Source of the DNA: Escherichia coli
Lineage (GTDB): Bacteria > Pseudomonadota > Gammaproteobacteria > Enterobacterales > Enterobacteriaceae
Assembly (NCBI RefSeq): GCF_003018115.1
Contig: NZ_CP027457.1
DNA: 64,000 nt
Strand: one strand, 5' to 3'
In this document: positions 31,140 to 41,420 of the stretch, piece after piece
How positions within the stretch are numbered: position 1 is the first letter of the stretch
Layout of the letters: the number at the start of each line of letters is the position of its first letter
Notes under the pieces: model-generated
The model's input: only the letters and a program-made list of their open reading frames with translations
What the model was told of the DNA's origin: nothing
Database searches by the model: none
Made by a program: the position numbers and the translations under genes

Positions 31140-31156
31140 GCCTTTAAATCAACACG

Positions 31157-31438
31157 TTACCGCCGTAACCGCTCCGGCTTCTTCCAGTTGTACGTAATTT
31201 TCTCTTTCTCCCTGTACATCTCTACACGGCGATTGTAGGCCAGCATTTCAAGAACGCGGATCCGTATGTCGCGCATATCAACGCCATTAAGTTCTATACC
31301 ATCACGGCGCATCACCTCCACCACTACACGCACATAATTATCTGCGGTCATGCTGTCCGGCTGCGTGGCCTGTTCGTCAACCTGCTGGCTGATTCCGGCG
31401 ACGCGGCGGATTAATCCCAGTATTTCGGCTTCTGTCAT
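31157..31438 (-). CDS. Hypothetical island protein (93 aa)
   Basis: ORF with ATG preceded by a G-rich SD-like stretch. Follows repeat copy 1. No recognisable motif. Confidence 0.5.
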   Translation of the reverse strand: MTEAEILGLIRRVAGISQQVDEQATQPDSMTADNYVRVVVEVMRRDGIELNGVDMRDIRIRVLEMLAYNRRVEMYREKEKITYNWKKPERLRR

Positions 31439-31475
31439 TGTGCCCCCATCGCGCTGGTGAAGAAAACAAGCTCAG

Positions 31476-31690
31476 ATTTTTTGTAAAGAATCTGTCACGC
31501 TAAAAGATGTCGAACAAAAAACAACCTTCTTCATCATCTTTTTTACATCAAAGCAATTAAAAACAATCACTTACGAACATGATGATGATGACGATAAAAT
31601 CAAAAAAATGCGTTTTTTTCCGCGCCGCCCGCCCCGTGTTCAGGCCCACCCCACCAGGAGGACCCGCAAAAAAGGCGGCTGGTGCCGCCT
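31476..31690 (-). repeat. Copy 1 of ~215-bp island repeat (terminator + G-rich cos-like core + A/T tracts)
   Basis: Aligns block by block with 34015-34228. Shared blocks: TTTTTGTAAA, GAACAAAAAACAACC, ATAAAATCAAAAAAATGCG, TTTTTCCGCGCC, CCGCCCCGTG, CAGGCCC..CCCCACCAGGAG and the terminator hairpin. Confidence 0.85.
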
Positions 31691-31695
31691 TGTTG

Positions 31696-33585
31696 TCATA
31701 GTGAATCGGTACCGCCTGATTTGACCATACCGCGATAATCCAGAGCTGCCACACCTGCATCAATACGGACTTTCCAGGCCACGCCGTCAACGATAAAACC
31801 TTCCTGCTGTTCAAGGTAAGGCTCGTCATTGCCATCAAGATAAGCCACCTCGATTGTGTCCGTTCCCTGTGCGGAAAGCATGTACCATTGTTTTTCGCTG
31901 ATATCATCAAGGCGGGGATCGACGATGATATCAAGTAGCTTGTGGTACGGGTTAAAGATCCCGCTGTTTTTATCAGCCCCGAAAGGTGCGGTTGAGTTAA
32001 TCATCTGCAACGCGCGATCTTCCAGTGCTGCCGGAACTAAAAGGAATTTAGGCGCAATATTCAGCACTTCGCCATTTTTGTCCTTCTGTGTGCGCATCAG
32101 GTGACGTGCTGCACTAAGTCCCGGTGTTGTCAGTCCTGCTTCAATCAGGTTGCTGTGTTTTTTGTCAAACAGCGTTATTCCGTCAGAAAGTTTTACGTTG
32201 CCTGTAAGCACCAGATTAACCAGATTTCCCACCGTTCTTGATGCTGCACGGCCCATAGCCATTGGCACCGTTGATAACTGATCAAGGTCATCATTGATTA
32301 TCGCCTGGCGGGTAATGCTGAAAATATTCCCGTAAGTAGCCAGCGCGATGGGTTCACCGCGATCGCTGGTGGTGATGTATTTATATTCTGCCCCTTCCGG
32401 CACTTTGTTTAACGTTGAGAAGCCATTCATACCAACGCGGCGGGCTTCCCGGAAGTTTGAAAGGGAACCTTTTTTCGTCCACTGGCGGAATGTTTCGCCG
32501 CTGTGCTCCCAGCCTGCAAGCACTGATTTTTCAGCGCCACCAGCAAGGATATCGGTAAAATCGCTGCTGCTGTGGGTGAATGCCGCGTTTACTATCTGCG
32601 AGCGTGTGCCGTAGCTGCCCGTGCTTATACCACGATGGGTTAATGATGCCTGTGCCATATCGAAAAGGCTCATCATGGCGTAAGGATTACCGCGTTCGGC
32701 CCGTTCGTGACCAAGACGCGCATTAAGCCCCTGACGCATGGCATCGCCGGTTATATTGCCGTTATCCGTGTACGCGTAGTAAAGATTTGCGGGGGTGGTT
32801 TTGTTTGTTGGCGTTGATTCTTTACCCATAGCGAGTAAAAGGCGTTCGCGTGCATTCTCAACGCTACATTCTGAATCCGCAAGACAACTTATAGCCAGGT
32901 CGTTATATCTTCCGTTGAAGGTGCCAAACAATTCACGGATTCCGTTAAGTCGTTCCTGTTCGCCACTGCCAGTTTTCTGGCTGATCATGCTTTTAATTTT
33001 TTCCGGCATATTTGAAAAATCTCCGATTCGTTTTGATTCAATTCGGGCCATTGCTGTAATCGCGGGTATAACCTCATCTGCGAAGCCGTTAGCCTTACAC
33101 TCATTGCCATCCATCCAGGTTTCCGCCTCCATCATTGAGGTGATCTCCTGTTTGCTCCTGCCCGTTCTTCCGGCATAGGTTTCTGCCATCGTGTCGCCCA
33201 GCTTGTCCATCAGATCAGCAAAGCGGCGAACGTCGCCCGACACTCCGGCAGTAACACCACGGGGGGCATGTATCATCATCATCGCGTTTTCAGGCATAAC
33301 GATGTGATCTCCACACATGGCAATAAACGACGCCATAGAAGCCGCCATGCCTTCAATGTGTACGATTTTTTTTGCCGGATGATTTTTCAGGGCGTTATAG
33401 ATAGCCAGCCCTTCAAAGATGTCGCCACCAGGTGAATGAATGCTCAGATGGATTTCAGACGCATTACCACACGCGTTGATCTCGTCAGTAAGTGCCGATG
33501 CTTTTACACCGTACCCGCCGATCTCGTCATAAATGCGCACATAGACAACATCTGCCATAGCCTTAATGGAAAACCATGTTTTCAT
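31696..33585 (-). CDS. ClpP-family prohead protease fused to phage major capsid protein (629 aa)
   Basis: N-terminus: IHSPGGDIFEGLAIYNAL..GMAASMASFIAMCGD..MMMIHAPRG (ClpP/S14-like Ser and His motifs). The C-terminal ~330 aa resembles HK97-fold/Mu gpT-like capsid proteins (..ALATYGNIFSITRQAIINDDL..WYMLSAQGTDTIEVAYLDG..). Assignment is from memory of the family, not from a search. Confidence 0.75.
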   Translation of the reverse strand: MKTWFSIKAMADVVYVRIYDEIGGYGVKASALTDEINACGNASEIHLSIHSPGGDIFEGLAIYNALKNHPAKKIVHIEGMAASMASFIAMCGDHIVMPENAMMMIHAPRGVTAGVSGDVRRFADLMDKLGDTMAETYAGRTGRSKQEITSMMEAETWMDGNECKANGFADEVIPAITAMARIESKRIGDFSNMPEKIKSMISQKTGSGEQERLNGIRELFGTFNGRYNDLAISCLADSECSVENARERLLLAMGKESTPTNKTTPANLYYAYTDNGNITGDAMRQGLNARLGHERAERGNPYAMMSLFDMAQASLTHRGISTGSYGTRSQIVNAAFTHSSSDFTDILAGGAEKSVLAGWEHSGETFRQWTKKGSLSNFREARRVGMNGFSTLNKVPEGAEYKYITTSDRGEPIALATYGNIFSITRQAIINDDLDQLSTVPMAMGRAASRTVGNLVNLVLTGNVKLSDGITLFDKKHSNLIEAGLTTPGLSAARHLMRTQKDKNGEVLNIAPKFLLVPAALEDRALQMINSTAPFGADKNSGIFNPYHKLLDIIVDPRLDDISEKQWYMLSAQGTDTIEVAYLDGNDEPYLEQQEGFIVDGVAWKVRIDAGVAALDYRGMVKSGGTDSL

Positions 33586-33776
33586 AGCCAGGCTCCTAAC
33601 GTTGCCTGGTACCAGTATTCAACCGCGCTGCGTGTGATTTGTCCTTTCGTGGGCACTGGCATACCCGGGTGATTATCTTTGATGAACTGCTGATAGCGTT
33701 CGATCTTCTCCATAGTTCCGGCGTCTATGTGCACAGTGGCACTTTTATCCGGCTTTCTGGTGTTGTTCTCTGGCAT
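33582..33776 (-). CDS. Small protein (64 aa from second Met), possibly ribbon-helix-helix-like, translationally coupled to the capsid fusion
   Basis: GGAGG lies 7 nt before the ATG at 33776 (MPENNTRK..). The stop overlaps the capsid-fusion start (ATGA). The pattern TVHIDAGTMEKIERY..TKGQITRSAVEYWY suggests a beta-alpha-alpha fold. Confidence 0.55.
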   Translation of the reverse strand: MPENNTRKPDKSATVHIDAGTMEKIERYQQFIKDNHPGMPVPTKGQITRSAVEYWYQATLGAWL

Positions 33777-33970
33777 AAATCCGCCTCCGTTTTGATTAAC
33801 GGGCATCATTATTGATCGATAAAAGTAATAGATAAATCATTTTCTACCTGAAAATCAGATTATGTTTTTTCTGATTATCCTCAGAGAGGCAAAGCCATTG
33901 ACGCATTTTTGCTATTGAAGCAATATTAAGACTCGTCATCCTGGCGATAAAAACTCCTTTGTCGTGTAAA

Positions 33971-34008
33971 AGCGCCTCCGGTAACAGCAATCGGGGGCGC
34001 TTTTTTTT
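33971..34008. terminator. Strong hairpin flanked by A8/T8 in the leader of the capsid operon (bidirectional terminator-like)
   Basis: GCGCCTCCG-11 nt-CGGGGGCGC (9 bp, one G.T) followed by TTTTTTTT on the plus strand. On the minus strand the same stem is followed by TTTTAC. Confidence 0.6.
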
Positions 34009-34014
34009 GCGCCT

Positions 34015-34228
34015 GTTTTTTGTAAATGTTTTCGGGAACGTTCCAGTGATGAACAAAAAACAACCCGATTCGACACTAAAAATTTTTATTCCTCAATATA
34101 TCAATAGCTTATAGTGGTGGTGATGGTGCCATAAAAATCAAAAAATGCGCCTTTTTCCGCGCCCCTCCGCCCCGTGGACAGGCCCCCCCCACCAGGAGTA
34201 CCTACAAAAAAGCCGGATTGCTCCGGCT
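34015..34228 (-). repeat. Copy 2 of ~215-bp island repeat
   Basis: See copy 1. The terminator AGCCGGA-ttgc-TCCGGCT plus a T-run (minus strand) lies immediately after the PerC-like gene. Confidence 0.85.
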
Positions 34229-34234
34229 GTGTGA

Positions 34235-34507
34235 TTAGCTGTCTTGGTAATTACACCATATTTCATCGCTTACACCATCTATACCCATTTCAGCATAAGT
34301 GCGATCTACTGCCTTTCTCAGGTCTCCGAAGTTATCCGGCGGCTCCGGTGGCCTCTGTGCCTTCCTGGAACATTCCAGCCGTCGCATCGTAACCTGATGC
34401 CGTTCCTTGTCTGTCTCCACCAGCTGCATGACTTCACCCCATCGCGCCGCCGCCCTCCGGTAAAATCCTTTCGCCTCGAGTTCCTCCGCTATGCGGTCAT
34501 GTATCAT
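34235..34507 (-). CDS. PerC-family-like transcriptional regulator (90 aa)
   Basis: The N-terminal pattern IAEELEAKGFYRRAAARWGEVM resembles the AE.LE..G..RRAA.RW signature I recall for PerC/Pch proteins. Confidence 0.5.
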   Translation of the reverse strand: MIHDRIAEELEAKGFYRRAAARWGEVMQLVETDKERHQVTMRRLECSRKAQRPPEPPDNFGDLRKAVDRTYAEMGIDGVSDEIWCNYQDS

Positions 34508-34772
34508 CGCCTGACTCTCCGGTTTTTACGTTGATGGTTGTTACCTGTTCCGCTTCGGCAATCTCCCGTTCTGTCAACGTGGCAAAGTTTGCCGCCGCTG
34601 TGGTCATGAATGCGCTTATCAGTTCGGGATGCTCCTTCGCGTATCCTTCCCCCGCGTGGCGGTCTATTACCCTGATTGCCACCTTTAAGGCGTGCTCTGT
34701 CATGTCTAACGCTTTATATTTCGGCTCTGTTCTGTCTCTGCGCATTTTGGTTATCTCCTCACTCATGCTCAC
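34497..34772 (-). CDS. Hypothetical island protein (91 aa, GTG start)
   Basis: ORF overlaps the downstream gene by 11 nt. Part of the tightly packed operon. Confidence 0.5.
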   Translation of the reverse strand: MSMSEEITKMRRDRTEPKYKALDMTEHALKVAIRVIDRHAGEGYAKEHPELISAFMTTAAANFATLTEREIAEAEQVTTINVKTGESGDDT

Positions 34773-34958
34773 TTTTACACCTCACTTTTTAAAGCGTCTC
34801 GCTTCGTCTCACTTGATATTTTTTGATGCTTTATGTGTGTGTTTCATAAGGATTTTTTTACTCCTCACTTTTGAGCATGTATACAGGTGAGAAAGTGAGT
34901 AATCGTGTTAATATTTTGTAAAAACCTCACCATTACTCACTTTTGCTACTCACTTTTT
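34758..34958. repeat. Iteron cluster (CTCACTTTT family) flanking an AT-rich core: candidate island replication origin
   Basis: CTCACT(T) copies at 34758, 34768, 34781, 34808, 34864, 34936 and 34949; CTCACC at 34926; inverted GGTGAG/AAAGTGAG at 34886-34899. The AT-rich stretch is 34815-34862. Lies immediately 3' of the replication ATPase gene. Confidence 0.6.
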
Positions 34959-36366
34959 ACAGTGGTCCTACATCATCACCATCAATGTAAATCACGGCGT
35001 CTTTTTCCAGTTTGGCTAACCATCGCCGCATATTTTTCACGTCATACCCAAGCCGTTTCATGTCATCACGTAACAGCGGGATCGTGCACTTGTCGCCGTT
35101 CTGTGTGCGTGAACGGATGCACCCCCATAGTGCGGTATGGTTTTCCGTCTTGTTGCCTGCCTCCTCGATGCGTTCCAGTTCAACGGGAGGGCGCGGCTTA
35201 TCCACCACCACCAGCGACGTGATTAACTCCCCGTCAGCGTCGGTAAACAGCTCCACCACGCGTAAGTCATATGCGGCTTCTTTGAGTTCCTCCGCGTCCT
35301 TCATTTTGGTGCATGAGATAACCAGCGCTTCGCTTCCTGCGTCCTCCCTGCGTATCCGGTATTCAGCATCCAGTGATGCACGAAATGCACTGGAACCGCG
35401 CGCGCCTTTCGTCTCATCCTTGCCGGAATGGTGAACCACCAGCACCGTGGCCCCTGTGCGTCGTTTCAGTTCGTCACAACCACGGATAAACGCCCCCATA
35501 TCACGGGAATCATTTTCATCATTCCCACCAAAGCAACGCGCCAGCGTATCCAGAATAATCATGCGTACAGGTTTACCCGTTTCCCGCTCCACCTGACGGG
35601 CAGCGATAACCATTTCATCAACATCAAGCGGGACCGCCGGAAAGATGGGACGGTTTACCAGATACAGATTTTTCACCTGCTCACCGTGCACAACCTCCCA
35701 GGCTTTTACACGACGCGGAACGCCGATACCGCCTTCACCAACCACATAGAGAACAGCGCCATGCGCCACCCTGCGGCCTCCCCACTGGCGGCCCGTGGAA
35801 ACGTGACACGCCCACGATCCGGCAAGGAATGATTTATAGGAACCGCTCGCCCCGTATATGCTGCAAAGCGACGATGCCGGAATAATCCCCTTTACCACGT
35901 AATCAAGCTGTGTGTCGTATCCGGTAGATCCAACGCTCATCGGTAGCGTGGTTTTTCGCTGGGGGATTTTTTTCATGACCAGGCTTTCCCCGCGTTCCCA
36001 TGCCTCCCTAAGCCGTGGAAGCTGGTCGCTCCATTCCTCCAGCAATTCGAAATTTTCAGAAAGTAGCCGCGCCTCCTGGACTCCGGCGATCGCCAGTTTC
36101 GTGGCGATGGTTAACAGCTGCGGCTCTTCAATATTTCCGGCGCGTATCACCGTCGCCCTGTATCGCCCATCATCAACAATCTGGAGGTTATCCAGTTTGC
36201 TTAACTGATAACGCCCCAGATAAACGGGAGGGACTGGATCGCCTGCTTTTTTGGCCTGTGCAATGATGTAATGCTCTGCGAATGAGTGAGCATCAATACC
36301 CGCAAAAATAATCGCATCGGTGTATTTATCTTTCGGTAATCGTTTTACGTTCGGTGCCAGTTTCAT
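34957..36366 (-). CDS. Replication ATPase, RepA/AAA_25 (RecA-like helicase) family, 469 aa
   Basis: Walker A GASGSYKS, Walker B RMIILDT and VVHHSGKD motif, typical of RepA-like helicases of plasmids and satellites. N-terminal ~140 aa unassigned. No zinc-finger or Toprim primase motifs seen. Confidence 0.7.
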   Translation of the reverse strand: MKLAPNVKRLPKDKYTDAIIFAGIDAHSFAEHYIIAQAKKAGDPVPPVYLGRYQLSKLDNLQIVDDGRYRATVIRAGNIEEPQLLTIATKLAIAGVQEARLLSENFELLEEWSDQLPRLREAWERGESLVMKKIPQRKTTLPMSVGSTGYDTQLDYVVKGIIPASSLCSIYGASGSYKSFLAGSWACHVSTGRQWGGRRVAHGAVLYVVGEGGIGVPRRVKAWEVVHGEQVKNLYLVNRPIFPAVPLDVDEMVIAARQVERETGKPVRMIILDTLARCFGGNDENDSRDMGAFIRGCDELKRRTGATVLVVHHSGKDETKGARGSSAFRASLDAEYRIRREDAGSEALVISCTKMKDAEELKEAAYDLRVVELFTDADGELITSLVVVDKPRPPVELERIEEAGNKTENHTALWGCIRSRTQNGDKCTIPLLRDDMKRLGYDVKNMRRWLAKLEKDAVIYIDGDDVGPL

Positions 36367-36662
36367 TTTTTACCCCTGAATCCGTTAATCATGGTTTTCA
36401 GCTTCTGGATGTTTGCCCGTGCCCTGGCGTTGCTGGTGGGCACGTTATGCGGCGCGGTCTGTACCAGAGAAAAATCACGCCGGAACTGATAAACAGGCAT
36501 CACGCAATCATATTCGTAACCTTCACGGCGGTAAGTTACGCACCGTCCCGCCACGCCCTTAATCATTACCGTGCCGCCGTACTGGTCGCGGTAAATATCA
36601 CCGCGCGTAAATTTAGGGTGAGTGTTGCCACTGGCAGTTAAGCCAGAATATTTAAGTTTCAT
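36363..36662 (-). CDS. Small protein, DUF4222-like (99 aa)
   Basis: The pattern YRDQYGGTVMIKGVAGRCVTYRREGYEYDCVMP resembles remembered DUF4222 proteins found upstream of satellite replication genes. ATGA overlap with the ATPase gene. Confidence 0.45.
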   Translation of the reverse strand: MKLKYSGLTASGNTHPKFTRGDIYRDQYGGTVMIKGVAGRCVTYRREGYEYDCVMPVYQFRRDFSLVQTAPHNVPTSNARARANIQKLKTMINGFRGKK

Positions 36663-36667
36663 TATTT

Positions 36668-36901
36668 TTATTCTCCGGTGTGCTGTTCGTTATATCTGTC
36701 GTGCAATGTCTCTATTTCCTGCAACTCATTTATTACAGGCTCAAGAAGCGTTATTAATGCCGTGGCAATTCTTGATTTTTGTTTGTCGCGTTCATTGTCG
36801 CCAAGTGTTTCAAGCCATATGCGCAATATTTCCATCATATTTTCACTGTGAGAAAGTGCAAGAAATACGCGATCTGTTGTTTCGTGGTAAATATCACGCA
36901 T
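36668..36901 (-). CDS. Hypothetical small helical protein (77 aa)
   Basis: ORF packed 1 nt after the upstream stop. Confidence 0.5.
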   Translation of the reverse strand: MRDIYHETTDRVFLALSHSENMMEILRIWLETLGDNERDKQKSRIATALITLLEPVINELQEIETLHDRYNEQHTGE

Positions 36902-36902
36902 A

Positions 36903-37124
36903 TTAATTACCGTCCGTTGTTTTTCTTAAAACAGCTTCTGTCACGAAATCGGCATAGTTAGCGGCAATATCAAGAATATTTAGCCCTGTATCTCTGTGCT
37001 CATCAGTGCAAAGAAAGAAAAAAGCCACCCGCATAATTTCAGATATTGACGAAAGCGCATCAGCCGCATCATCAGGAACGCCGGAAAATTCTTGTTTCAG
37101 GGAATAAAAACGATCATCACGCAT
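36903..37124 (-). CDS. Hypothetical small protein (73 aa from MRDDRFY)
   Basis: The ATG at 37124 overlaps the upstream stop (ATGCGTGA) and is preceded by a GGGGGGG SD-like run. Confidence 0.5.
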   Translation of the reverse strand: MRDDRFYSLKQEFSGVPDDAADALSSISEIMRVAFFFLCTDEHRDTGLNILDIAANYADFVTEAVLRKTTDGN

Positions 37125-37356
37125 AACCCCCCCCATTTTCACAATCAGTAATCAGGATGGTTTTAGCCTCATTCAGTGCCATATCAGCACTAAATTGCAT
37201 AACAGCCAGTGAGTGAGGAACGAAAGCCCCGGTATATTCTGTTTCGCTGGTGGCGTGCTTATGTGCCCTGTCCGCGATAACAGAAATATCAATCAGCGCG
37301 TGCATCAGCGTTTTGATGGCTTCGGCGGCTGCGTCCGGTGTGGTTTTATTGTGCAT
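37117..37356 (-). CDS. Hypothetical small protein (79 aa)
   Basis: ORF overlaps the upstream ORF by 11 nt. Confidence 0.5.
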   Translation of the reverse strand: MHNKTTPDAAAEAIKTLMHALIDISVIADRAHKHATSETEYTGAFVPHSLAVMQFSADMALNEAKTILITDCENGGGYA

Positions 37357-37675
37357 AAAGCATCCCCTGAATATTCGTGTTAATCATTCCGGCACGTTTT
37401 GTGATTTCCTGTAATGATTCCCTTGTGGCGACAATTGCTTCATCTGGTAAGTGGTAATTACACACCACGCGACCTTTATCCACATTGACCAGTAGCTGCC
37501 CTGTGAATTTCTCACGAAACTGAATGCGGTTAAGGTCAGTAAGTGACAGATTAATAATGGCGCACCTCCTGACGAATACGGGCGGCAAATACAGCAACAC
37601 AACCGGACGGGCAACGGTTACGCGCTTCGCGTTCCGTCCAGGCGGTGACGTGGATGATTTGAGATTCTCCGGCAC
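37346..37675 (-). CDS. Hypothetical protein, start uncertain (109 aa from GTG 37675; ~71 aa if initiated at ATT 37558 after AGGAGG)
   Basis: Long open frame overlapping the icd-like ORF out of frame. A strong AGGAGG (37570-37565) has no canonical start codon at proper spacing, only ATT. Confidence 0.4.
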   Translation of the reverse strand: MPENLKSSTSPPGRNAKRVTVARPVVLLYLPPVFVRRCAIINLSLTDLNRIQFREKFTGQLLVNVDKGRVVCNYHLPDEAIVATRESLQEITKRAGMINTNIQGMLYAQ

Positions 37676-37748
37676 TCAGGGCCAGAAAACGCCACACAAA
37701 GGCAGTTTGTGTGTGTACAAGGTGTGGTATATGATTTACGGCAACCAT
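37551..37748 (-). CDS. Small protein (65 aa), tentatively Icd-like (host cell division inhibitor family)
   Basis: GAGGAG SD 5 nt before the ATG. First gene of the leftward operon. The pattern FVWRFLALS..IIHVTAWTEREARNR..VFAARIRQEV resembles my recollection of Icd-like proteins of P4-like elements. Unverified. Confidence 0.5.
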   Translation of the reverse strand: MVAVNHIPHLVHTQTAFVWRFLALSAGESQIIHVTAWTEREARNRCPSGCVAVFAARIRQEVRHY

Positions 37749-37812
37749 AACGGCTCCTCGTTTACGTTGTTGGTTAGAAGCCCCGTTACTGCTCCTACAG
37801 TGCGGGGTTTCG
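37742..37812 (+). ncRNA. Candidate small RNA A (cis-antisense to the RBS/start of the icd-like gene)
   Basis: Promoter-like TTGTGT (37707-12) -17 bp- TATGAT (37730-35). Hairpin GCCCCG-17 nt-CGGGG (37780-37807) followed by TTTCGTCGTTTC. A homologous unit lies at 38453-38565. Confidence 0.35.
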
Positions 37813-37837
37813 TCGTTTCAACACCTTGCCTAAATAA

Positions 37838-37891
37838 GGTGTTGAACACCAATTTAAATCGAGGTGTTAAACACGTCAAGTGTTGAACACT
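37838..37891. promoter_or_regulatory. Three palindromic operators (GGTGTTGAACACC family) overlapping divergent promoter-like hexamers
   Basis: 37838-50 GGTGTTgAACACC (perfect); 37863-75 GGTGTTaAACACG; 37879-91 AGTGTTgAACACT (perfect). Minus strand: TTGACG (37879-74) -17- TAAATT (37856-51). Plus strand: TTGAAC (37883-88) -17- CATACT. Confidence 0.6.
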
Positions 37892-37940
37892 TATTTTTTT
37901 TCCTGCATACTGCATTTGTTTTTTATGAGGGGTGCTCAAC

Positions 37941-38120
37941 ATGGCGACAAAAGCAGTAAACGCAAAATCACAAACAGTTGCGGCAAGGGTTCCACATGAA
38001 GTTATGAACAATGTTGAGGCGGTAAAAATGCCCGGCGAAAGTACAGGGCAGTTTGTTACAGCTGCATTAAAGCGGGAAGTTGAATACCGCCAGCGTCGCA
38101 AGGCCAAAGAATCAGAATAA
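37941..38120 (+). CDS. Ribbon-helix-helix DNA-binding protein 1 (59 aa)
   Basis: ATG preceded by GAGGGG. TVAARVPHEVMNNVEAV..STGQFVTAALKREV fits a beta-strand/helix/helix (CopG/Arc/MetJ) layout. Confidence 0.65.
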   Translation: MATKAVNAKSQTVAARVPHEVMNNVEAVKMPGESTGQFVTAALKREVEYRQRRKAKESE

Positions 38121-38177
38121 TCACTATCAGCGCCGTGGTGTGAGGTACTACGGCGCATTGCTTTACAGGGCAGTATC

Positions 38178-38405
38178 ATGACCAACAACACACTATCACC
38201 AATACAAGACACGCAAACGCAAGATGATGAAATCATCCGGCAAAGGCAGTCAGAAGCCTGCGCCAGACTTGAGGAAGAACTAACCAGAACAAAAATACCA
38301 CCACCAGCGCCGCGCTTAGTGCCACCAGAAAAATTTGCCCTTGAAGATTTTGTCGATAAATACCCACGGCGGCTTAAATCCGGCAAAAACCGACCGCCTG
38401 GCTGA
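38178..38405 (+). CDS. Small protein (75 aa), paralog of 38856..39059
   Basis: MTNN.. start. Shares the motif F.L(E/D)(D/E)F(V/L).KY.R with the second copy. Confidence 0.5.
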   Translation: MTNNTLSPIQDTQTQDDEIIRQRQSEACARLEEELTRTKIPPPAPRLVPPEKFALEDFVDKYPRRLKSGKNRPPG

Positions 38406-38487
38406 GTGCACAAAACCGAACTATGAAACGGATTATTCCGTTTCCGGGGCGTTTGTGTGTGTATAAAGAGTAAGCTATGCTCTTTTA

Positions 38488-38565
38488 TAGCCATAATCGT
38501 TACCTCAATTAATGGTTTGGTTAGACGCCCCGTATGTGAGCCACCACTGCGGGGCGTTGTTTTTT
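38488..38565 (+). ncRNA. Candidate small RNA B (homolog of RNA A with a strong intrinsic terminator)
   Basis: TTGTGT (38453-58) -17 bp- TATGCT (38476-81). TTGGTTAGA, then stem ACGCCCCG (38525-32) / CGGGGCGT (38550-57), then TTGTTTTTTG. Confidence 0.4.
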
Positions 38566-38583
38566 GTATAACGGTAAGTACAA

Positions 38584-38624
38584 TGGTAATTACCATGTAA
38601 CTATAGTAATTAAGGGTAATTACC
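38584..38624. promoter_or_regulatory. Palindromic operators GGTAATTACC (x2, plus a degenerate middle copy) at the RHH-2 start
   Basis: TGGTAATTACCA at 38584-95, AGTAATTAAG at 38605-14, GGTAATTACC at 38615-24, abutting the ATG at 38625. Confidence 0.55.
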
Positions 38625-38798
38625 ATGTCAACACCATTGGAAAAGCGATCGCCTCCATACCAAATGCGGCTACCAGAAGAATTCAGAGCACAACTTGAAG
38701 AGGCAGCGAAAGCAGACGGTGACACTTCTTTAGCCACCTGGATCAAGCGAGTACTCCGAAAAGAATTACAGCAACGCGGTATTGAACCCAAAGGATAA
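38625..38798 (+). CDS. Ribbon-helix-helix (Arc-like) DNA-binding protein 2 (57 aa; below the ORF-track cutoff)
   Basis: Manual translation gives MSTPLEKRSPPYQMRLPEEFRAQLEEAAKADGDTSLATWIKRVLRKELQQRGIEPKG. The MRLPEE..L..AA...G.S....I pattern is typical of Arc/MetJ-type repressors. AAGGG SD lies 8 nt upstream. Confidence 0.6.
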   Translation: MSTPLEKRSPPYQMRLPEEFRAQLEEAAKADGDTSLATWIKRVLRKELQQRGIEPKG

Positions 38799-38855
38799 AA
38801 AACATCAGCGCCGTGGCGTGAGGAACTCCGGCGCATTGCTTTACAGGTACACACA

Positions 38856-39059
38856 ATGACCAACAAAGAATCAACCAATACACCATCGCAAAAAACGAAC
38901 AGAGAGCACGAAAATATGGCGTTCGAGCATGAATCAGAAAGATTCGCACCATGCGCTTTTGTCCTTGATGAGTTTCTAAAAAAATATTCACGTTCTGAAC
39001 GGATGAAAATGGCAGCACAATACGGCCCCAACAAGCAAGATAATTGCCCACCAGCCTGA
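38856..39059 (+). CDS. Small protein (67 aa), paralog of 38178..38405
   Basis: MTNK.. start with FVLDEFLKKYSRSERMK motif. Preceded by the conserved 44-nt hairpin block. Confidence 0.5.
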   Translation: MTNKESTNTPSQKTNREHENMAFEHESERFAPCAFVLDEFLKKYSRSERMKMAAQYGPNKQDNCPPA

Positions 39060-39127
39060 TCGCGGTTATCATGCCCGGGCTTATGATTGTTGACACATAC
39101 GGCGCAGCGGGTTAATTGTTCAGAAAG

Positions 39128-39156
39128 GTGGCTCCATTTCGGGGCCGCTTTTTTTA
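39128..39156 (+). terminator. Rho-independent terminator ending the rightward RHH operon
   Basis: GGCTCC-atttc-GGGGCC stem, then GC and TTTTTTT. Confidence 0.6.
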
Positions 39157-39180
39157 TGTTCATCATTTGCCCTATATATG

Positions 39181-39387
39181 TTAAGCGGTCGTTCCGCGCG
39201 CTTCTTGTTCGCGTTCTTTCATCCATGCGATTACGTCTTCCTCATACCATCCGCGACGGCGCAAACCGACACGAAAACCCTGCGGGAATTCTCCGGCGTT
39301 GATCATGCTTTGCAGCGTGCTGTCTGCCTTAATGTGGATAAGTTTTTTTACTTCCTGGCGAAAGATGACTTTTTTGATTGCTTCCAT
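39181..39387 (-). CDS. AlpA-family phage regulatory protein / excisionase-like (68 aa)
   Basis: The pattern ..LIHIKADSTLQSMINAGEFPQGFRVGLRRRGWYEEDVIAWM.. matches the MerR-like wHTH AlpA/Xis family signature (R.v.W...dV..W). Confidence 0.8.
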   Translation of the reverse strand: MEAIKKVIFRQEVKKLIHIKADSTLQSMINAGEFPQGFRVGLRRRGWYEEDVIAWMKEREQEARGTTA

Positions 39388-39406
39388 CGTGATTTACCTC
39401 ATTAAT

Positions 39407-39488
39407 CCGGTGTATTCCGGTGAGAAATACGGTAAATCATCGGATGCAGGGAAAAACAGTACTCACCGTTTTTAAACGGTATACACCG
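39407..39488. promoter_or_regulatory. Nested inverted repeat across the alpA promoter region
   Basis: CCGGTGTAT (39407-15) and CCGGTGAG (39417-24) pair with CTCACCG (39462-68) and ATACACCG (39481-88). Confidence 0.55.
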
Positions 39489-39520
39489 TTTTTTATATTG
39501 ATGATTTGAAAGGGATTTAT

Positions 39521-39546
39521 AAAAAAAGCGGCATTTCTGCCGCTTT
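39521..39546 (-). terminator. Rho-independent terminator after orf83
   Basis: Minus strand: GCGGCA-gaaa-TGCCGC followed by TTTTTTT. Confidence 0.7.
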
Positions 39547-39554
39547 CAGGATTG

Positions 39555-39806
39555 TTACCGCCATTTTTTTGGCCTGCCTCCGGTCTTCATGGATGCCGGA
39601 CGTACAACCTTATCAATACTTACAGCCAGATTTCTGGAAGCCCCACGGGATACCAGGAAATCTACTACCTGTTTTTTTGATGGGGCCGTCGTTCTGTCCT
39701 CCGGATCGTAGGTTGACCAAAATTCATGCTGAACCATCAGGGCCAGTTGCAGCCCGTCGCAATTGCATCTGAAATTTGTTTGCATCTTAACAGTTTCATT
39801 TTTCAA
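39555..39806 (-). CDS. Hypothetical protein (83 aa) downstream of int, basic C-terminus (GGRPKKWR)
   Basis: ORF between int and its terminator. No confident family assignment. Confidence 0.45.
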   Translation of the reverse strand: MKNETVKMQTNFRCNCDGLQLALMVQHEFWSTYDPEDRTTAPSKKQVVDFLVSRGASRNLAVSIDKVVRPASMKTGGRPKKWR

Positions 39807-39883
39807 GGCCTCGTCGTTAAATGTGATGCAATTATACGACGGTTTTAAATGGTTTTCGTAGTTTTTACTGGTTTTCTGTACAG

Positions 39884-41125
39884 CTAAACGGCTCGGATAC
39901 CCCTTTTACCACTGGCGAGGGTTACGCCCGTCGCCGCAGCCTCGACAAATTCGCCCCACCAGCGCATAAGCACGATGCGTTTTTCTATGTAGTTGCTCCG
40001 GTTGTATGCCCGTCTGACTTCGTTGGTGTCGACGTGGGCAAGTGCGGCCTCTATTACGTCCGGCTCAAAGCCTTCTTCGTTCGCTGCTGTGCTGAATATG
40101 GCGCGTAATCCATGAGACACCAGCACGCCAGCGAATCCCATGCGTCGTAATGCTGCGTTAGCGGTCTGGCTGTTCATCGGCTGCTGTGGGTCTTTCAGAC
40201 TCGGGAAAACATAATCGCGGTGGTGGCTGATTGGTTTCATAGCCTCCAGCACTGCCATAGCCTGGTCACAAAGCGGGATAACGTGGTCGCGGCGCATCTT
40301 CATGCGTCCGGCGGGTATGGTCCAGCGTTGCGCTTCCATGTCGATTTCTTCCCAGCGTGCCGACGATGCTTCAACGGGACGGGTTACGGTCAGTAACTGC
40401 CATTCAATCAGTAATCTGGTCTGCCGTTCTGTTGCCGATACTGATAAAGCCTGCATAAGCTCCGGCAGCTGTTCGGGGCGGATTGTTGGCATATGTTTTT
40501 TTACAGGGGAGGGGAACGCCTTACGCACATTCATAGCCGGATTGGCATCAATCATCCCACTATTGGCGGCGTAATCCATTACCTCATTTATACGCTGTAA
40601 AACTCGCTTGAGCGTTTCCAGGTTGCCACGTTCCTTGATGGGGGTAAGCACCTCAACGAACCTGCGAGCGGTCAGGGTGTCTATTGGCGTGTTGCCGATG
40701 AACGGGAATACATATTTTTCCAGCGATCGCCAGATGTCTTTAATCGTATTGGGGGCCAGATTCTGGCTGATTTTCACCTGGTACCATGCTGTTGCCACAT
40801 TTTCGAACGTGTTCCCTTGTCTTCGGGCCTCTGTCTCTCTTTTTTGCCTCTCGTGGTCCTGCGGGTCAGTTCCGGCACGAATTAACGCCCTGTACTCGCT
40901 ACGGCGTTTTCTGGCATCAGCCAGGGAAACATCATCAAGCGATCCAAAACTCAGCAATATTCTTTTTTTGTCCGATGGTCGGTAGTAGGAAAATCTCCAG
41001 AGTTTTGATCCGGACGGTTTGATCAGGAGAAAAAGCCCTCCGCCGTCCTGTAGGGTGTATTCCTTTTCTGCTGGTCTGGCTGCTTTGATCTGTACTGTGG
41101 TTAATGGGGGTGTTTTTCTCGCCAT
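39884..41125 (-). CDS. Tyrosine integrase, P4-type (413 aa)
   Basis: N-terminal DUF4102-like arm-binding region (LTTVQIKAARPAEKEYTLQDGGGLFLLIKPSGSKLWRF). C-terminal catalytic motifs (HGLRAIFST..AHVDTNEVRRAYNRSNY). Adjacent to the tRNA. Confidence 0.92.
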   Translation of the reverse strand: MARKTPPLTTVQIKAARPAEKEYTLQDGGGLFLLIKPSGSKLWRFSYYRPSDKKRILLSFGSLDDVSLADARKRRSEYRALIRAGTDPQDHERQKRETEARRQGNTFENVATAWYQVKISQNLAPNTIKDIWRSLEKYVFPFIGNTPIDTLTARRFVEVLTPIKERGNLETLKRVLQRINEVMDYAANSGMIDANPAMNVRKAFPSPVKKHMPTIRPEQLPELMQALSVSATERQTRLLIEWQLLTVTRPVEASSARWEEIDMEAQRWTIPAGRMKMRRDHVIPLCDQAMAVLEAMKPISHHRDYVFPSLKDPQQPMNSQTANAALRRMGFAGVLVSHGLRAIFSTAANEEGFEPDVIEAALAHVDTNEVRRAYNRSNYIEKRIVLMRWWGEFVEAAATGVTLASGKRGIRAV

Positions 41126-41156
41126 ATGCTTATGATTCCAAACGAAAAAACAGGGT

Positions 41157-41212
41157 TTTAGTTATACGGCTTTAGTTATACGTCAGCCCGTATAACTAAA
41201 CGTATAACTAAA
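41157..41212. promoter_or_regulatory. Four 12-mers (2 direct TTTAGTTATACG + 2 inverted CGTATAACTAAA) upstream of int
   Basis: Copies at 41157-68, 41171-82, 41189-200 and 41201-12. Same motif as 30579-30602 at the other island end. Confidence 0.6.
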
Positions 41213-41215
41213 AAA

Positions 41216-41336: not shown

Positions 41337-41358
41337 GGCGATTTGGTCGGCACGAGAG
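41337..41358. repeat. tRNA-proximal att repeat
   Basis: GGCGATTTGGTCGGCACGAGAG. Pairs with 30496-30517. Confidence 0.75.
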
Positions 41359-41420
41359 GATTTGAACCTCCGACCCCCGACACCCCATGACGGTGCGCTA
41401 CCAGGCTGCGCTACGTGCCG
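41344..41420 (-). tRNA. proL: tRNA-Pro (anticodon GGG)
   Basis: Reverse complement is CGGCACGTAGCGCAGCCTGGTAGCGCACCGTCATGGGGTGTCGGGGGTCGGAGGTTCAAATCCTCTCGTGCCGACCA (77 nt, encoded CCA, T-loop GGTTCAAATCC, U-GGG-G anticodon loop). Confidence 0.93.

What the first reader, a model, noticed from the sequence alone, without database searches (positions are those of the whole stretch)
34758..34958. Iteron cluster immediately 3' of the replication ATPase gene: candidate origin
Seen: seven direct CTCACT(T) copies (34758, 34768, 34781, 34808, 34864, 34936, 34949) and one CTCACC variant (34926), plus two inverted copies (34886-34899). They flank a ~48-bp AT-rich core (34815-34862) in the only sizeable gap of the leftward operon. 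Established: SaPI/PICI-type satellites place their ori as iterons around an AT-rich region just downstream of the rep/helicase gene. Inference: this is the island ori, recognised by the 469-aa ATPase.
Basis: partly seen in the sequence, partly recalled or inferred. Interest (0 to 1): 0.55.

Follow-up and report, generated by a model that had tools for sequence, protein, structure and literature searches.

The report
Replication origin of a phage satellite
The repeat cluster is very probably the replication origin of a roughly 10-kb phage-parasitic island (PICI) in E. coli, read by the DNA-binding tail of the helicase encoded next to it; this layout is already published for such islands, so it is a well-supported but ordinary example.

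Summary
All listed CTCACT/CTCACC copies and both inverted copies sit at the stated coordinates. Ten units lie in 211 bp where 0.17 are expected. I add one degenerate copy (CTCGCT, 34798-34803) and a conserved palindrome, TGTATACA (34878-34885).

The window is E. coli. The cluster lies in a ~10-kb PICI-type satellite at the published yejM-narP attachment site, directly 3' of a RepA-family helicase gene.

Three results tie the repeats to that protein.
- A sister island whose RepA differs almost only in its last 60 residues carries GTGGG instead of GTGAG at the repeat positions, in the same layout.
- The published island EcCI11128 has a different RepA N-terminus but that same C-terminus, and it has the GTGGG repeats.
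- In 72 RepA loci across Enterobacterales, one residue at the start of the predicted recognition helix tracks repeat base 4 without exception.

The last 65 residues model confidently as a winged helix. Neighbouring genes do not covary with the repeats.

The layout (two iteron sets around an AT-rich region, 3' of rep) was described for E. coli PICIs in 2018, but tested only on a different Rep type. Verdict: a new member of a known kind, of modest interest.

The parts
34957..36366 (-). RepA-family helicase-initiator gene (469 aa). It has an N-terminal alpha/beta domain of unknown function (aa 1-125), a RecA-like AAA_25 ATPase core (aa ~150-390) and a C-terminal winged helix (aa ~405-469).
   Evidence: Pfam AAA_25, E = 1e-43. 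RefSeq names the identical protein WP_060612367.1 'helicase RepA family protein'. Weak PDB sequence match to RSF1010 RepA 1g8y. The full-length model matches RadA/Rad51/T7 gp4 folds weakly. Walker A (G172-S179), D273 and H312-K316 are invariant in alignment A2.
34960..35154 (-). Coding region for the C-terminal winged-helix domain (aa 405-469). The predicted recognition helix is aa 446-455. N445 at its N-terminal end is the proposed specificity residue.
   Evidence: AlphaFold2 domain model: pLDDT 92.4, topology H-H-H-beta-beta. Foldseek PDB top hits are winged-helix DNA-binding domains (DtxR/IdeR, MepR/SarZ, HrcA, Fur, ArsR), probability 0.98-0.99, rmsd about 2.5 A over about 64 residues. 18 of the 19 differences from the GTGGG-type allele lie in aa 411-469.
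34926..34956 (-). Rep-proximal iteron triplet. On the coding strand it reads AAAGTGAG, AAAAGTGAG, GGTGAG (CTCACT at 34949 and 34936, CTCACC at 34926). It starts one base after the RepA stop codon, and the copies are spaced 13 and 10 bp.
34900..34925 (.). First A/T-rich spacer. It overlaps the least stable 30-mer of the gap, which starts at 34908.
34886..34899 (+). Two inverted iterons (GGTGAG and AAGTGAG on the + strand).
   Evidence: One to three inverted copies occur at the same relative position in RepA loci of other genera.
34878..34885 (.). Conserved palindrome TGTATACA at the centre of a dyad formed by the inverted pair and the next direct iteron.
   Evidence: A YRTATA/TATAYR element lies 56-83 nt after the RepA stop in 75 of 82 loci, mostly at 56-73; about 10 are expected by shuffling. 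It stays the same across alleles whose iterons differ.
34864..34872 (-). Single direct iteron (AAAAGTGAG on the coding strand), the right arm of the dyad.
34815..34862 (.). A/T-rich core (75% A+T), the proposed DNA-unwinding region.
   Evidence: Top 0.8% of 48-mers in the window for A+T. Low nearest-neighbour duplex stability over 34806-34875. The sequence is poorly conserved between alleles, but its length and A/T-richness are kept.
34798..34814 (-). Two direct iterons 10 bp apart: CTCACT (34808-34813) and a degenerate CTCGCT (34798-34803).
   Evidence: Repeat family D6. In the sister allele both positions carry GTGGG-type copies.
34758..34789 (-). Rep-distal iteron triplet (CTCACT at 34781, 34768 and 34758, spaced 13 and 10 bp). 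The last copy, GTGAGGAG, also forms the Shine-Dalgarno sequence of the downstream gene.
   Evidence: Reading of the minus strand: GTGAGGAGATAACCAAAATG.
34497..34745 (-). Downstream 82-aa gene of unknown function (phrog_1231). Its ribosome-binding site and possible alternative starts overlap the distal triplet.
   Evidence: It is 95% identical between islands with different iterons, and it was not found next to RepA in other genera.
39884..41125 (-). Island integrase (context).
   Evidence: Pfam Phage_integrase, Phage_int_M and Arm-DNA-bind_3.
39181..39387 (-). AlpA-like regulator (context).
   Evidence: Identical to WP_000387403.1, annotated as 'AlpA family transcriptional regulator' in L005. 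The Pfam Phage_AlpA hit is below threshold (E = 0.003).
41159..41210 (.). Four TAGTTATACG repeats (two direct, two inverted) at the island end next to tRNA-Pro. They match the published att core of yejM-luxR PICIs.
   Evidence: Table S1 of PMC6092414.

Best explanation
The interval 34758-34956 is the vegetative replication origin of a ~10-kb PICI-type phage satellite. The island spans about 31155-41215 and sits between yejO and tRNA-Pro/yejM in E. coli.

Proposed mechanism (inferred, not shown):
1. After the island is induced, the adjacent gene produces RepA. RepA has a RecA-fold (AAA_25, RSF1010-RepA-like) hexameric helicase core and carries its own origin-recognition module, a C-terminal winged helix.
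2. The winged helices bind the 5'-(A)AAGTGAG-3' repeats: three next to the stop codon, a dyad of inverted and direct copies around TGTATACA, and five beyond the AT-rich core. Within the blocks the copies are spaced about one helical turn apart.
3. Binding concentrates RepA on both sides of the 48-bp, 75% A+T core. The core melts and the helicase loads itself, without DnaA.
4. The residue at the N-terminal end of the recognition helix (N445) reads base 4 of the repeat, the A in GTGAG.
5. This 469-aa form has no recognisable primase domain, so priming is presumably done by the host.

Shown here: the repeats, their layout, their conservation, and their covariation with the RepA C-terminus. Inferred: binding, melting, self-loading and the priming route.
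For: 1. Position and layout match the published PICI origin: immediately 3' of rep, with two iteron sets flanking an AT-rich region (PMC6092414). The island has the PICI gene order int, alpA-like, icd-like, DUF4222, rep, gap, perC, capsid-related gene. It occupies the published yejM-luxR att site.

2. Concerted change. The sister island L002 has the same layout, but the units change from GTGAG to GTGGG in register. Its RepA is 96% identical, and 18 of the 19 substitutions lie in aa 411-469.

3. Natural domain swap. EcCI11128 (L087) has a divergent RepA N-terminal domain but the L002-type C-terminus, and it carries the GTGGG repeats.

4. Module swap. Islands at the same site with a primase-family or DUF5906 Rep carry unrelated GGTAGA-type repeats in the equivalent gap. 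The functionally tested EcCICFT073 origin is of that type.

5. Family-wide conservation. In 61 of 74 RepA-homolog loci from many genera of Enterobacterales, the 300 bp after the stop codon is the most 7-mer-repetitive stretch of the locus. The layout is stereotyped: direct copies plus 1-3 inverted ones, spanning roughly +4 to +225 (mostly about +12 to +195) after the stop.

6. Residue-base association with no exception in 72 loci: N goes with A (25 loci), H with G (12), K with G (27), S or G with C (8). In two closely matched pairs (L090/L087 and L093/L094) the recognition-helix region is nearly identical apart from N versus H, and the iteron core differs at base 4, A versus G.

7. The C-terminal domain models at pLDDT 92 as a winged helix and matches DNA-bound winged-helix repressors.

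8. Neighbouring proteins do not covary with the repeats (95-100% identical across iteron types) and are missing from most of the other RepA loci.

9. The gap has no sigma-70-like promoter or terminator.
Against: - There is no functional evidence. Replication of a RepA-type PICI origin was not tested in the papers read; the 2018 experiment used a different Rep family.
- The covariation is partly confounded by linkage, because the C-terminal coding region lies within 1-200 bp of the repeats and would travel with them in any recombination. The 72 loci are also not phylogenetically independent.
- The AT-rich core is not the least stable DNA in the island.
- The protein has no recognisable primase domain, unlike its 680-730-aa relatives, which carry zinc-ribbon and Toprim domains (P0119). 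The priming route is therefore unknown.
- The distal triplet overlaps the ribosome-binding site and start of the next gene, so some copies could serve regulation instead of, or as well as, initiation.
- The ATPase core of the full-length model is of low confidence.
Confidence: 0.85

Rival explanations
1. The repeats are RepA-binding sites whose main job is regulation rather than initiation. They would provide copy-number control or handcuffing, or repress translation or transcription of the downstream 82-aa/perC genes. The true initiation site would lie elsewhere.
For: The distal triplet overlaps the Shine-Dalgarno sequence and start region of the next gene (minus-strand reading). Iterons in plasmids are known to act in both initiation and control (general knowledge). 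Other AT-rich, gene-poor stretches exist in the island.
Against: No second CTCACTT cluster exists anywhere in the island or the window, so RepA has no other candidate site. The layout of two sets around an AT-rich core, 3' of rep, is the one shown to be needed for EcCICFT073 replication. In other genera the downstream gene differs but the cluster persists.
Confidence: 0.08
2. The repeats are operators for a different DNA-binding protein of the island (PerC, the 82-aa protein, DUF4222 or AlpA) that controls a promoter for the downstream genes.
For: The cluster lies in an intergenic gap upstream of perC and the capsid-related genes. PerC-family proteins are transcriptional activators (Pfam).
Against: PerC (99% identical), DUF4222 (99-100%) and the 82-aa protein (90-95%) are nearly the same in islands with GTGAG and with GTGGG repeats. 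They are absent from most of the other RepA loci, which still have the cluster. No sigma-70-like promoter was found on either strand. The repeat type tracks RepA aa 411-469.
Confidence: 0.03
3. The cluster is a packaging signal, that is, a cos or pac recognition site for a small terminase.
For: E. coli PICIs carry helper-type cos sites (PMC6092414), and terminase-binding sites can be repeated.
Against: The repeats swap together with the rep gene, not with the capsid or terminase genes. The same RepA and repeats occur in islands with quite different packaging modules: L003 has a portal, protease and capsid set, whereas the window has a protease-capsid fusion. There is no lambda-type cosN in the island. 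A better cos candidate is the G-rich tract after the perC terminator, about 34150-34200.
Confidence: 0.02
4. The cluster is a chance or low-complexity artefact of an A/T-rich intergenic region.
For: The gap is 64% A+T, against 49% for the window.
Against: Poisson P = 3.6e-15, and composition-matched shuffles never approach the observed count. The layout is conserved across genera.
Confidence: 0.01

Closest known systems
Replication origins of Gram-negative PICIs (EcCI elements; Fillol-Salom et al. 2018, ISME J, PMC6092414)
   Same: - The origin lies immediately 3' of rep, with two iteron sets flanking an AT-rich region.
- The island type and gene order are the same.
- The att site is the same (yejM-luxR/narP).
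- Published members EcCI11128, and probably the roxA-phoQ island of O157:H7/O55:H7, carry the same RepA family with sister iteron alleles (GTGGGGA and GTGAGG).
   Different: - The only functionally tested E. coli PICI origin (EcCICFT073) pairs a 584-aa primase-family Rep with unrelated GGTAGA-type repeats.
- The GTGAG allele seen here occurs, at 95% identity or more, in only 36 of 5426 complete E. coli genomes.
- I could not see Fig. 2a of that paper, so I cannot say whether this allele is drawn there.
SaPI Rep/ori of Staphylococcus aureus (self-loading helicases; PMC9371898)
   Same: The initiator is itself the helicase. A C-terminal winged-helix domain reads 5-6-nt iterons. Six to twelve iterons lie directly downstream of the rep ORF, with an AT-rich region near the centre, and specificity is cognate between Rep and ori.
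   Different: - The motor differs. SaPI Reps are described as AAA+ helicases related to the superfamily 3 and MCM groups and unwind 3'-5', whereas this protein is a RecA-fold AAA_25/RSF1010-RepA-like ATPase.
- In SaPIs at least two iterons on each side point in opposite directions. Here inverted copies occur only on the rep-proximal side, as a dyad around TGTATACA.
RSF1010/IncQ RepA helicase
   Same: Same Pfam family (AAA_25), with the same Walker A/B and HHxxK motifs. It is the only solved structure found by sequence (1g8y).
   Different: As far as I recall, IncQ RepA is a bare ~280-aa helicase, and origin iterons are read by a separate protein, RepC. Here the iteron reader is fused to the helicase, and an extra ~125-aa N-terminal domain is present.
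Satellite phage P4 alpha protein with ori and crr
   Same: An enterobacterial satellite whose multifunctional initiator-helicase binds short repeats through a C-terminal domain (my own knowledge; P4 alpha and its cognate ori are mentioned in PMC6092414).
   Different: As far as I recall, P4 alpha is a primase plus D5-type helicase, and it needs a second repeat cluster (crr) several kb from ori. Here there is a single cluster, a different motor and no primase domain.

Membership tests
PICI-type replication origin (iterons around an AT-rich region, 3' of rep) | Located immediately 3' of the replication initiator gene | tested here: met
   The first repeat (34949-34955/6) begins one base after the RepA stop codon at 34957-34959.
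PICI-type replication origin (iterons around an AT-rich region, 3' of rep) | Two sets of short repeats flanking an AT-rich region | tested here: met
   Four direct and two inverted copies lie on the rep side, and five direct copies (one degenerate) on the far side, of a 48-bp core that is 75% A+T.
PICI-type replication origin (iterons around an AT-rich region, 3' of rep) | Repeats are cognate to the adjacent Rep, so that specificity travels with Rep | tested here: met
   The repeat type follows RepA aa 411-469 in natural swaps. It also follows one helix-capping residue in 72 loci. This is comparative evidence only.
PICI-type replication origin (iterons around an AT-rich region, 3' of rep) | Supports Rep-dependent autonomous replication | not testable with these tools
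   This needs the plasmid-maintenance assay that was used for EcCICFT073.
Gram-negative PICI (EcCI-type phage satellite) | Size of about 8-12 kb, integrase at one end, specific att site not used by prophages | tested here: met
   The island spans about 31155-41215. The integrase is at 39884-41125. TAGTTATACG repeats at 41159-41210 match the published yejM-luxR att core.
Gram-negative PICI (EcCI-type phage satellite) | AlpA-type regulator and unidirectional transcription of the int-to-morphogenesis genes | tested here: met
   The 68-aa protein is identical to WP_000387403.1, annotated as AlpA family, although the Pfam AlpA hit is sub-threshold. All island genes lie on the minus strand.
Gram-negative PICI (EcCI-type phage satellite) | Capsid-morphogenesis or packaging-redirection genes present, with no tail or lysis genes | tested here: met
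   A ClpP-protease/major-capsid fusion lies at 31696-33585. No tail, holin or lysin gene is annotated in the near-identical island L002. No small terminase was recognised, which would make it 'Type B' in SatelliteFinder terms.
Gram-negative PICI (EcCI-type phage satellite) | Induction, packaging and transfer by a helper phage | not testable with these tools
   Experimental.
SaPI Rep family (AAA+ self-loading helicase with a C-terminal winged-helix domain) | AAA+ helicase motor (superfamily 3 / MCM-related) | tested here: not met
   The motor is Pfam AAA_25, i.e. RecA-like. The PDB sequence hit is RSF1010 RepA, and the fold hits are RadA/Rad51/T7 gp4.
SaPI Rep family (AAA+ self-loading helicase with a C-terminal winged-helix domain) | C-terminal winged-helix domain that reads the iterons | tested here: met
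   The fold is met by the model and fold search. The reading function is supported by covariation only.
SaPI Rep family (AAA+ self-loading helicase with a C-terminal winged-helix domain) | At least two iterons on each side of the AT-rich region pointing in opposite directions | tested here: not met
   The two inverted copies are both on the rep-proximal side, and all five distal copies are direct.
RSF1010/IncQ-type RepA helicase (Pfam AAA_25) | AAA_25 domain with intact Walker A, Walker B and HHxxK motifs | tested here: met
   E = 1e-43 against a 27-bit cut-off. G172-S179, D273 and H312-K316 are invariant in alignment A2.
P4-like satellite replicon (alpha protein, ori plus crr) | A second repeat cluster (crr) at a distance, and a primase domain in the initiator | tested here: not met
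   There is no other CTCACTT cluster in the island. The N-terminal 128 aa has no Pfam hit at E <= 1. Primase domains are present only in the longer relatives.
Classical iteron plasmids (Rep_3/RepA WH1-WH2 initiators with DnaA boxes) | Host DnaA boxes (often with IHF sites) next to the iterons, and a non-helicase Rep | tested here: not met
   There is no DnaA box with up to 2 mismatches, no IHF consensus and no GATC in 34700-35000. The initiator is itself a helicase-family ATPase.

The most novel reading that the evidence does not exclude
In RepA-type satellite replicons, origin specificity may be set by a very simple code. The residue capping the recognition helix of the C-terminal winged helix (N445 here) would read base 4 of the GTGNG iteron directly: Asn reads A, His or Lys reads G, Ser or Gly goes with C. 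If so, a single substitution plus homogenisation of the ~11 repeats would create a new, mutually exclusive replicon specificity. This would also be a RecA-fold (SF4-like) helicase that independently acquired the same 'self-loading, iteron-reading' design as the AAA+ Reps of SaPIs. I found no description of this residue-base pairing in the papers searched.
Probability: 0.5. Interest if true: 0.45.

Novelty: new member of a known kind. Interest (0 to 1): 0.3.

Why it matters
For annotation, the finding lets the island's replication module be labelled with confidence: RepA initiator-helicase plus its cognate origin.

More generally, E. coli satellites exchange 'C-terminal reader plus origin' cassettes as a unit. 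The RepA N-terminal domain, motor and reader each occur in several alleles that recombine. Origin specificity probably decides which co-resident satellites can cross-activate or compete for replication, so a predictable reader-to-repeat rule would be useful in two ways:
- typing satellites into replicon specificity groups from sequence alone;
- building orthogonal, inducible replicons.

It does not change the current picture of how PICIs replicate.

Tried and rejected
- Promoter and terminator scan of 34300-35300. No sigma-70-like promoter was found, and no terminator lies in the gap. The three terminator-like hits are inside coding sequence on the non-coding strand.
- DnaA box, IHF consensus and GATC search in 34700-35000: nothing.
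- Lambda cosN search. Only chance-level matches were found, none in the island.
- PADLOC scan of RepA and of the 496-aa and 109-aa ORFs: no hits.
- Pfam scan of the RepA N-terminal 128 aa. There were no hits at E <= 1. The C-terminal 72 aa gave only a sub-threshold HTH_36 hit (E = 0.13).
- Fold search with the full-length model. The model is poor in the ATPase core (pTM 0.47). It gave only weak RecA-family matches and nothing for the end domains, so I modelled the C-terminal domain separately.
- First shuffle null. It gave 13 of 5000 shuffles at or above the observed count, probably because of overlapping poly-A words (not inspected). I replaced it with a null that ignores near-pure A/T words.
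- A first regular-expression method for locating RepA missed 15 loci. I replaced it with tblastn plus ORF extension. Five loci with frameshifted genes were left out.
- ED1a (accession NC_011745) is not in the E. coli collection.
- Considered and rejected as explanations: operator for neighbouring regulators, packaging site, and chance (see the rival explanations).
Full report

Yes. Direct reading and exact matching place CTCACT at 34758, 34768, 34781, 34808, 34864, 34936 and 34949. CTCACC is at 34926. The inverted copies are GGTGAG at 34886-34891 and AAGTGAG at 34893-34899.

The enrichment is strong:
- Seven of the 14 CTCACTT matches in the whole 64-kb window fall within 34768-34955.
- Ten units of the CTCAC[TC]/[AG]GTGAG type lie in 211 bp, where the rest of the window predicts 0.17 (Poisson P = 3.6e-15).
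- A first-order Markov model of the gap itself predicts 0.2 CTCACT.
- Base shuffles of the gap never gave more than 4 copies of any 7-mer with fewer than 6 A/T bases, against 7 observed.

The core 34815-34862 is 75% A+T, in the top 0.8% of 48-mers.

I add three details:
- The outer copies form two 49-nt blocks, each with three copies spaced 10 and 13 bp.
- There is one degenerate extra copy, CTCGCT, at 34798-34803.
- A palindrome, TGTATACA, lies at 34878-34885.

One statement is wrong. This is not the only sizeable gap in the operon: 33810-34234 and 31439-31695 are also essentially gene-free.

**2. Context**

The window is E. coli. The nap, ccm and narP genes and yejO lie to the left. A tRNA-Pro(GGG) at 41344-41420 and yejM lie to the right.

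Between yejO and the tRNA is a ~10-kb island, about 31155-41215. All its genes are on the minus strand. In order they are:
- an integrase;
- a 68-aa AlpA-like regulator;
- a 496-aa ORF with no family match;
- an Icd-like gene and several small genes;
- a DUF4222 gene;
- a 469-aa RepA-family helicase (Pfam AAA_25, E = 1e-43);
- the repeat-bearing gap;
- an 82-aa gene;
- perC;
- a ClpP-protease/major-capsid fusion.

This is the gene order of the Gram-negative phage-inducible chromosomal islands (PICIs) described by Fillol-Salom et al. 2018 (PMC6092414). Their Table S1 lists several E. coli PICIs at exactly this yejM-luxR(narP) site, with an att core of TTTGTAGTTATACG.... The window has four TAGTTATACG copies at 41159-41210.

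**3. What the literature already says**

[quoted passage not shown] It also shows that a cloned EcCICFT073 rep-ori segment maintains a temperature-sensitive plasmid, while rep and ori deletions are impaired.

However, EcCICFT073 carries a different initiator, a 584-aa 'DNA primase family protein', with unrelated GGTAGA-type repeats.

**4. Are the repeats tied to this RepA?**

Four comparisons say yes.

(a) Island L002 (NZ_AP042512) sits at the same site. It has the same layout in the same register, but the units read GTGGG instead of GTGAG. Its RepA is 96% identical, and 18 of the 19 substitutions fall in aa 411-469.

(b) The published PICI EcCI11128 has a divergent RepA N-terminal domain and the L002-type C-terminus, and it carries the GTGGG repeats. 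The repeat type therefore follows the last ~60 residues, not the N-terminal domain or the motor.

(c) Islands at the same site whose rep gene is of the primase or DUF5906 type have GGTAGA-type repeats in the equivalent gap. The repeats move with the rep module.

(d) The neighbouring proteins are 90-100% identical across islands with different repeats. They are missing from most of the RepA loci in other genera, which nevertheless have the cluster.

**5. Conservation across the family**

A scan of one genome per species returned 80 RepA-homolog loci from many genera of Enterobacterales, among them Xenorhabdus, Pectobacterium, Serratia, Pantoea, Morganella, Kosakonia and Citrobacter.

In 61 of the 74 usable loci, the 300 bp after the stop codon is the most 7-mer-repetitive stretch of the locus. 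The median top count there is 6, against 2.3 elsewhere.

The layout is stereotyped. There are several direct copies plus one to three inverted ones, spanning roughly +4 to +225 (mostly about +12 to +195) after the stop. A YRTATA/TGTATACA element lies between the inverted copy and the next direct copy in 75 of 82 loci, where about 10 are expected.

All the repeat cores are variants of GTGNG:
- GTGAG in this window;
- GTGGG(G)A in other E. coli alleles and several genera;
- GTGAGGA in Xenorhabdus and Salmonella;
- GTGCGGCA in Kosakonia, Enterobacter and Kluyvera;
- GTGGGGGA in Pectobacterium, Serratia and Morganella.

**6. A candidate recognition rule**

RepA C-termini share an invariant Arg/Lys-Trp motif (...K-x-[FML]-x-[RK]-W-[LVI]...). 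The residue three positions before it, N445 here, tracks base 4 of the repeat without exception in the 72 loci that have at least four copies: Asn with A (25 loci), His with G (12), Lys with G (27), Ser or Gly with C (8).

These loci are related, so the counts are not independent events. Two closely matched pairs are more telling. In L090 versus EcCI11128, and in L093 versus L094, the recognition-helix region is nearly identical apart from Asn versus His, and the repeat core differs at base 4, A versus G. An O157:H7 PICI at roxA-phoQ follows the same rule, with MKNFRRW and GTGAGG.

**7. Protein architecture**

The full-length AlphaFold2 model is confident for aa 1-125, an alpha/beta domain with no family match, and for aa 405-469. 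It is poor for the ATPase core.

Its fold matches are weak and are to RadA/Rad51/T7 gp4. This agrees with the AAA_25 hit and with the weak sequence match to RSF1010 RepA.

The C-terminal domain modelled alone has pLDDT 92.4 and a helix-helix-helix-strand-strand topology. Its best structural matches are winged-helix DNA-binding domains, several solved on DNA: DtxR/IdeR, MepR/SarZ, HrcA, Fur and ArsR. Foldseek probabilities are 0.98-0.99, with rmsd about 2.5 A over about 64 residues. The E-values are only about 0.05-0.2 because the domain is short.

N445 precedes the third helix (aa 446-455), which is the usual recognition helix.

Longer relatives of 680-730 aa carry an N-terminal zinc-ribbon plus Toprim primase (P0119; ORF lengths). 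The E. coli 469-aa form does not.

**8. Most likely mechanism**

Shown here: a repeat array with conserved layout directly after the gene, and concerted covariation with the C-terminal domain of that gene's product.

Inferred:
1. RepA winged helices bind the repeats on both sides of the AT-rich core.
2. The dyad around TGTATACA may nucleate two oppositely oriented assemblies.
3. The core melts and the helicase loads itself.
4. DnaA is not required. No DnaA box, IHF consensus or GATC is present.
5. Priming is left to the host.

This is how SaPI Reps are described (PMC9371898): an initiator-helicase with a C-terminal winged-helix domain, 6-12 iterons directly after the rep ORF, and a central AT-rich region.

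The resemblance is functional, not a matter of shared ancestry of the motor. SaPI Reps are AAA+ helicases related to the superfamily 3 and MCM groups, while this protein is RecA-fold. The SaPI rule of opposed iterons on both sides of the core is also not met here.

**9. Rival explanations**

- A mainly regulatory role for the repeats cannot be excluded for the distal triplet, because its last copy (GTGAGGAG) is the Shine-Dalgarno sequence of the next gene. But there is no other RepA site in the island.
- An operator for a neighbouring regulator is contradicted.
- A packaging site is contradicted by the repeats travelling with rep across islands that have different packaging modules.
- Chance is excluded.

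The main caveat is linkage. The concerted homogenisation of the copies, and the two closely matched pairs, argue that a common reader selects them. Only binding and replication assays can prove it.

**10. Novelty and score**

The kind of element and its layout are published for E. coli PICIs, and published islands carry sister alleles. This instance is therefore a new member of a known kind. This particular allele (95% identity or more over the origin plus the reader domain) occurs in 36 of 5426 complete E. coli genomes.

I did not find the following points described:
- the winged-helix assignment for the RepA-type initiator;
- the residue-to-base rule;
- the conserved TATA-like dyad;

These are modest extensions. 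Interest: 0.3.

Noticed in passing
L001 (NZ_CP027449.1, 4523409-4541409); equivalent to window 31155-39400: In strain 2014C-3097 an island whose compared 2-kb RepA/origin segment is 100% identical to the window is not at yejM-narP. It is inserted inside a prophage large-terminase gene, which is split into an N-terminal and a C-terminal pseudogene fragment. That copy uses a different integrase (WP_249926382.1). The prophage carries its own ClpP-protease/capsid fusion, so this may be a satellite integrated into a likely helper.
   Followed up: no
window 37736-39226 (-): A 496-aa ORF between the AlpA-like and Icd-like genes has no match in Pfam, PADLOC or PHROGs. Sister islands carry other genes at this position (BRO-N, Ash, hypothetical proteins). 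It looks like the variable cargo slot of the island and could hold an undescribed accessory or defence gene.
   Followed up: partly
window 34130-34236: Directly after perC on the minus strand there is a stem-loop plus T-run (GCCGGAGCAATCCGGCTTTTTT). It is followed by a very G-rich tract (GGTGGGGGGGGCCTGTCCACGGGGCGGAGGGGCGCGG) and then A/T-rich DNA. This may be the end of the early operon followed by the island's packaging (cos) site. There is no lambda-type cosN.
   Followed up: partly
window 34878-34885, and 56-83 nt after the RepA stop (mostly 56-73) in L002-L094: A palindromic TGTATACA / YRTATA element is conserved between the inverted iteron(s) and the next direct iteron in 75 of 82 RepA loci, whatever the iteron sequence. 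It may be the nucleation or melting point of the origin, or a site for another factor.
   Followed up: partly
RepA aa 445 (window 35032-35034) and iteron base 4: The residue before the recognition helix tracks base 4 of GTGNG in all 72 loci tested: N with A, H or K with G, S or G with C.
   Followed up: yes
window 34957-36366, and proteins P0001-P0120: E. coli RepA proteins are mosaics. The N-terminal domain (aa 1-130), the ATPase core and the C-terminal reader each occur in several alleles that are combined in different ways. The same RepA-origin module is found in islands with a protease-capsid fusion and in islands with a full capsid/portal set.
   Followed up: partly
window 34752-34754 (start of the RefSeq CDS equivalent to L001 8098-8355): The RefSeq annotation of the identical sequence starts the downstream gene at an ATA codon, apparently carried over by homology. 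An ATG at 34745 with a GAGGAG Shine-Dalgarno sequence 9 nt upstream is a more plausible start. An ATG at 34766 and a GTG at 34772 are also in frame.
   Followed up: no
window 31696-33585 (-): The island encodes a 629-aa ClpP-like prohead protease fused to an HK97-type major capsid protein, as some lambdoid prophages do. No portal or terminase gene was recognised. How a satellite uses a lone protease-capsid fusion is unclear; it might co-assemble with, or remodel, helper capsids.
   Followed up: no
window 41159-41210: Four TAGTTATACG copies (two direct, then two inverted) lie between the integrase gene and tRNA-Pro. They resemble the published att core of yejM-luxR PICIs. No matching copy was found at the other island end near 31155, so the left junction was not defined.
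   Followed up: partly
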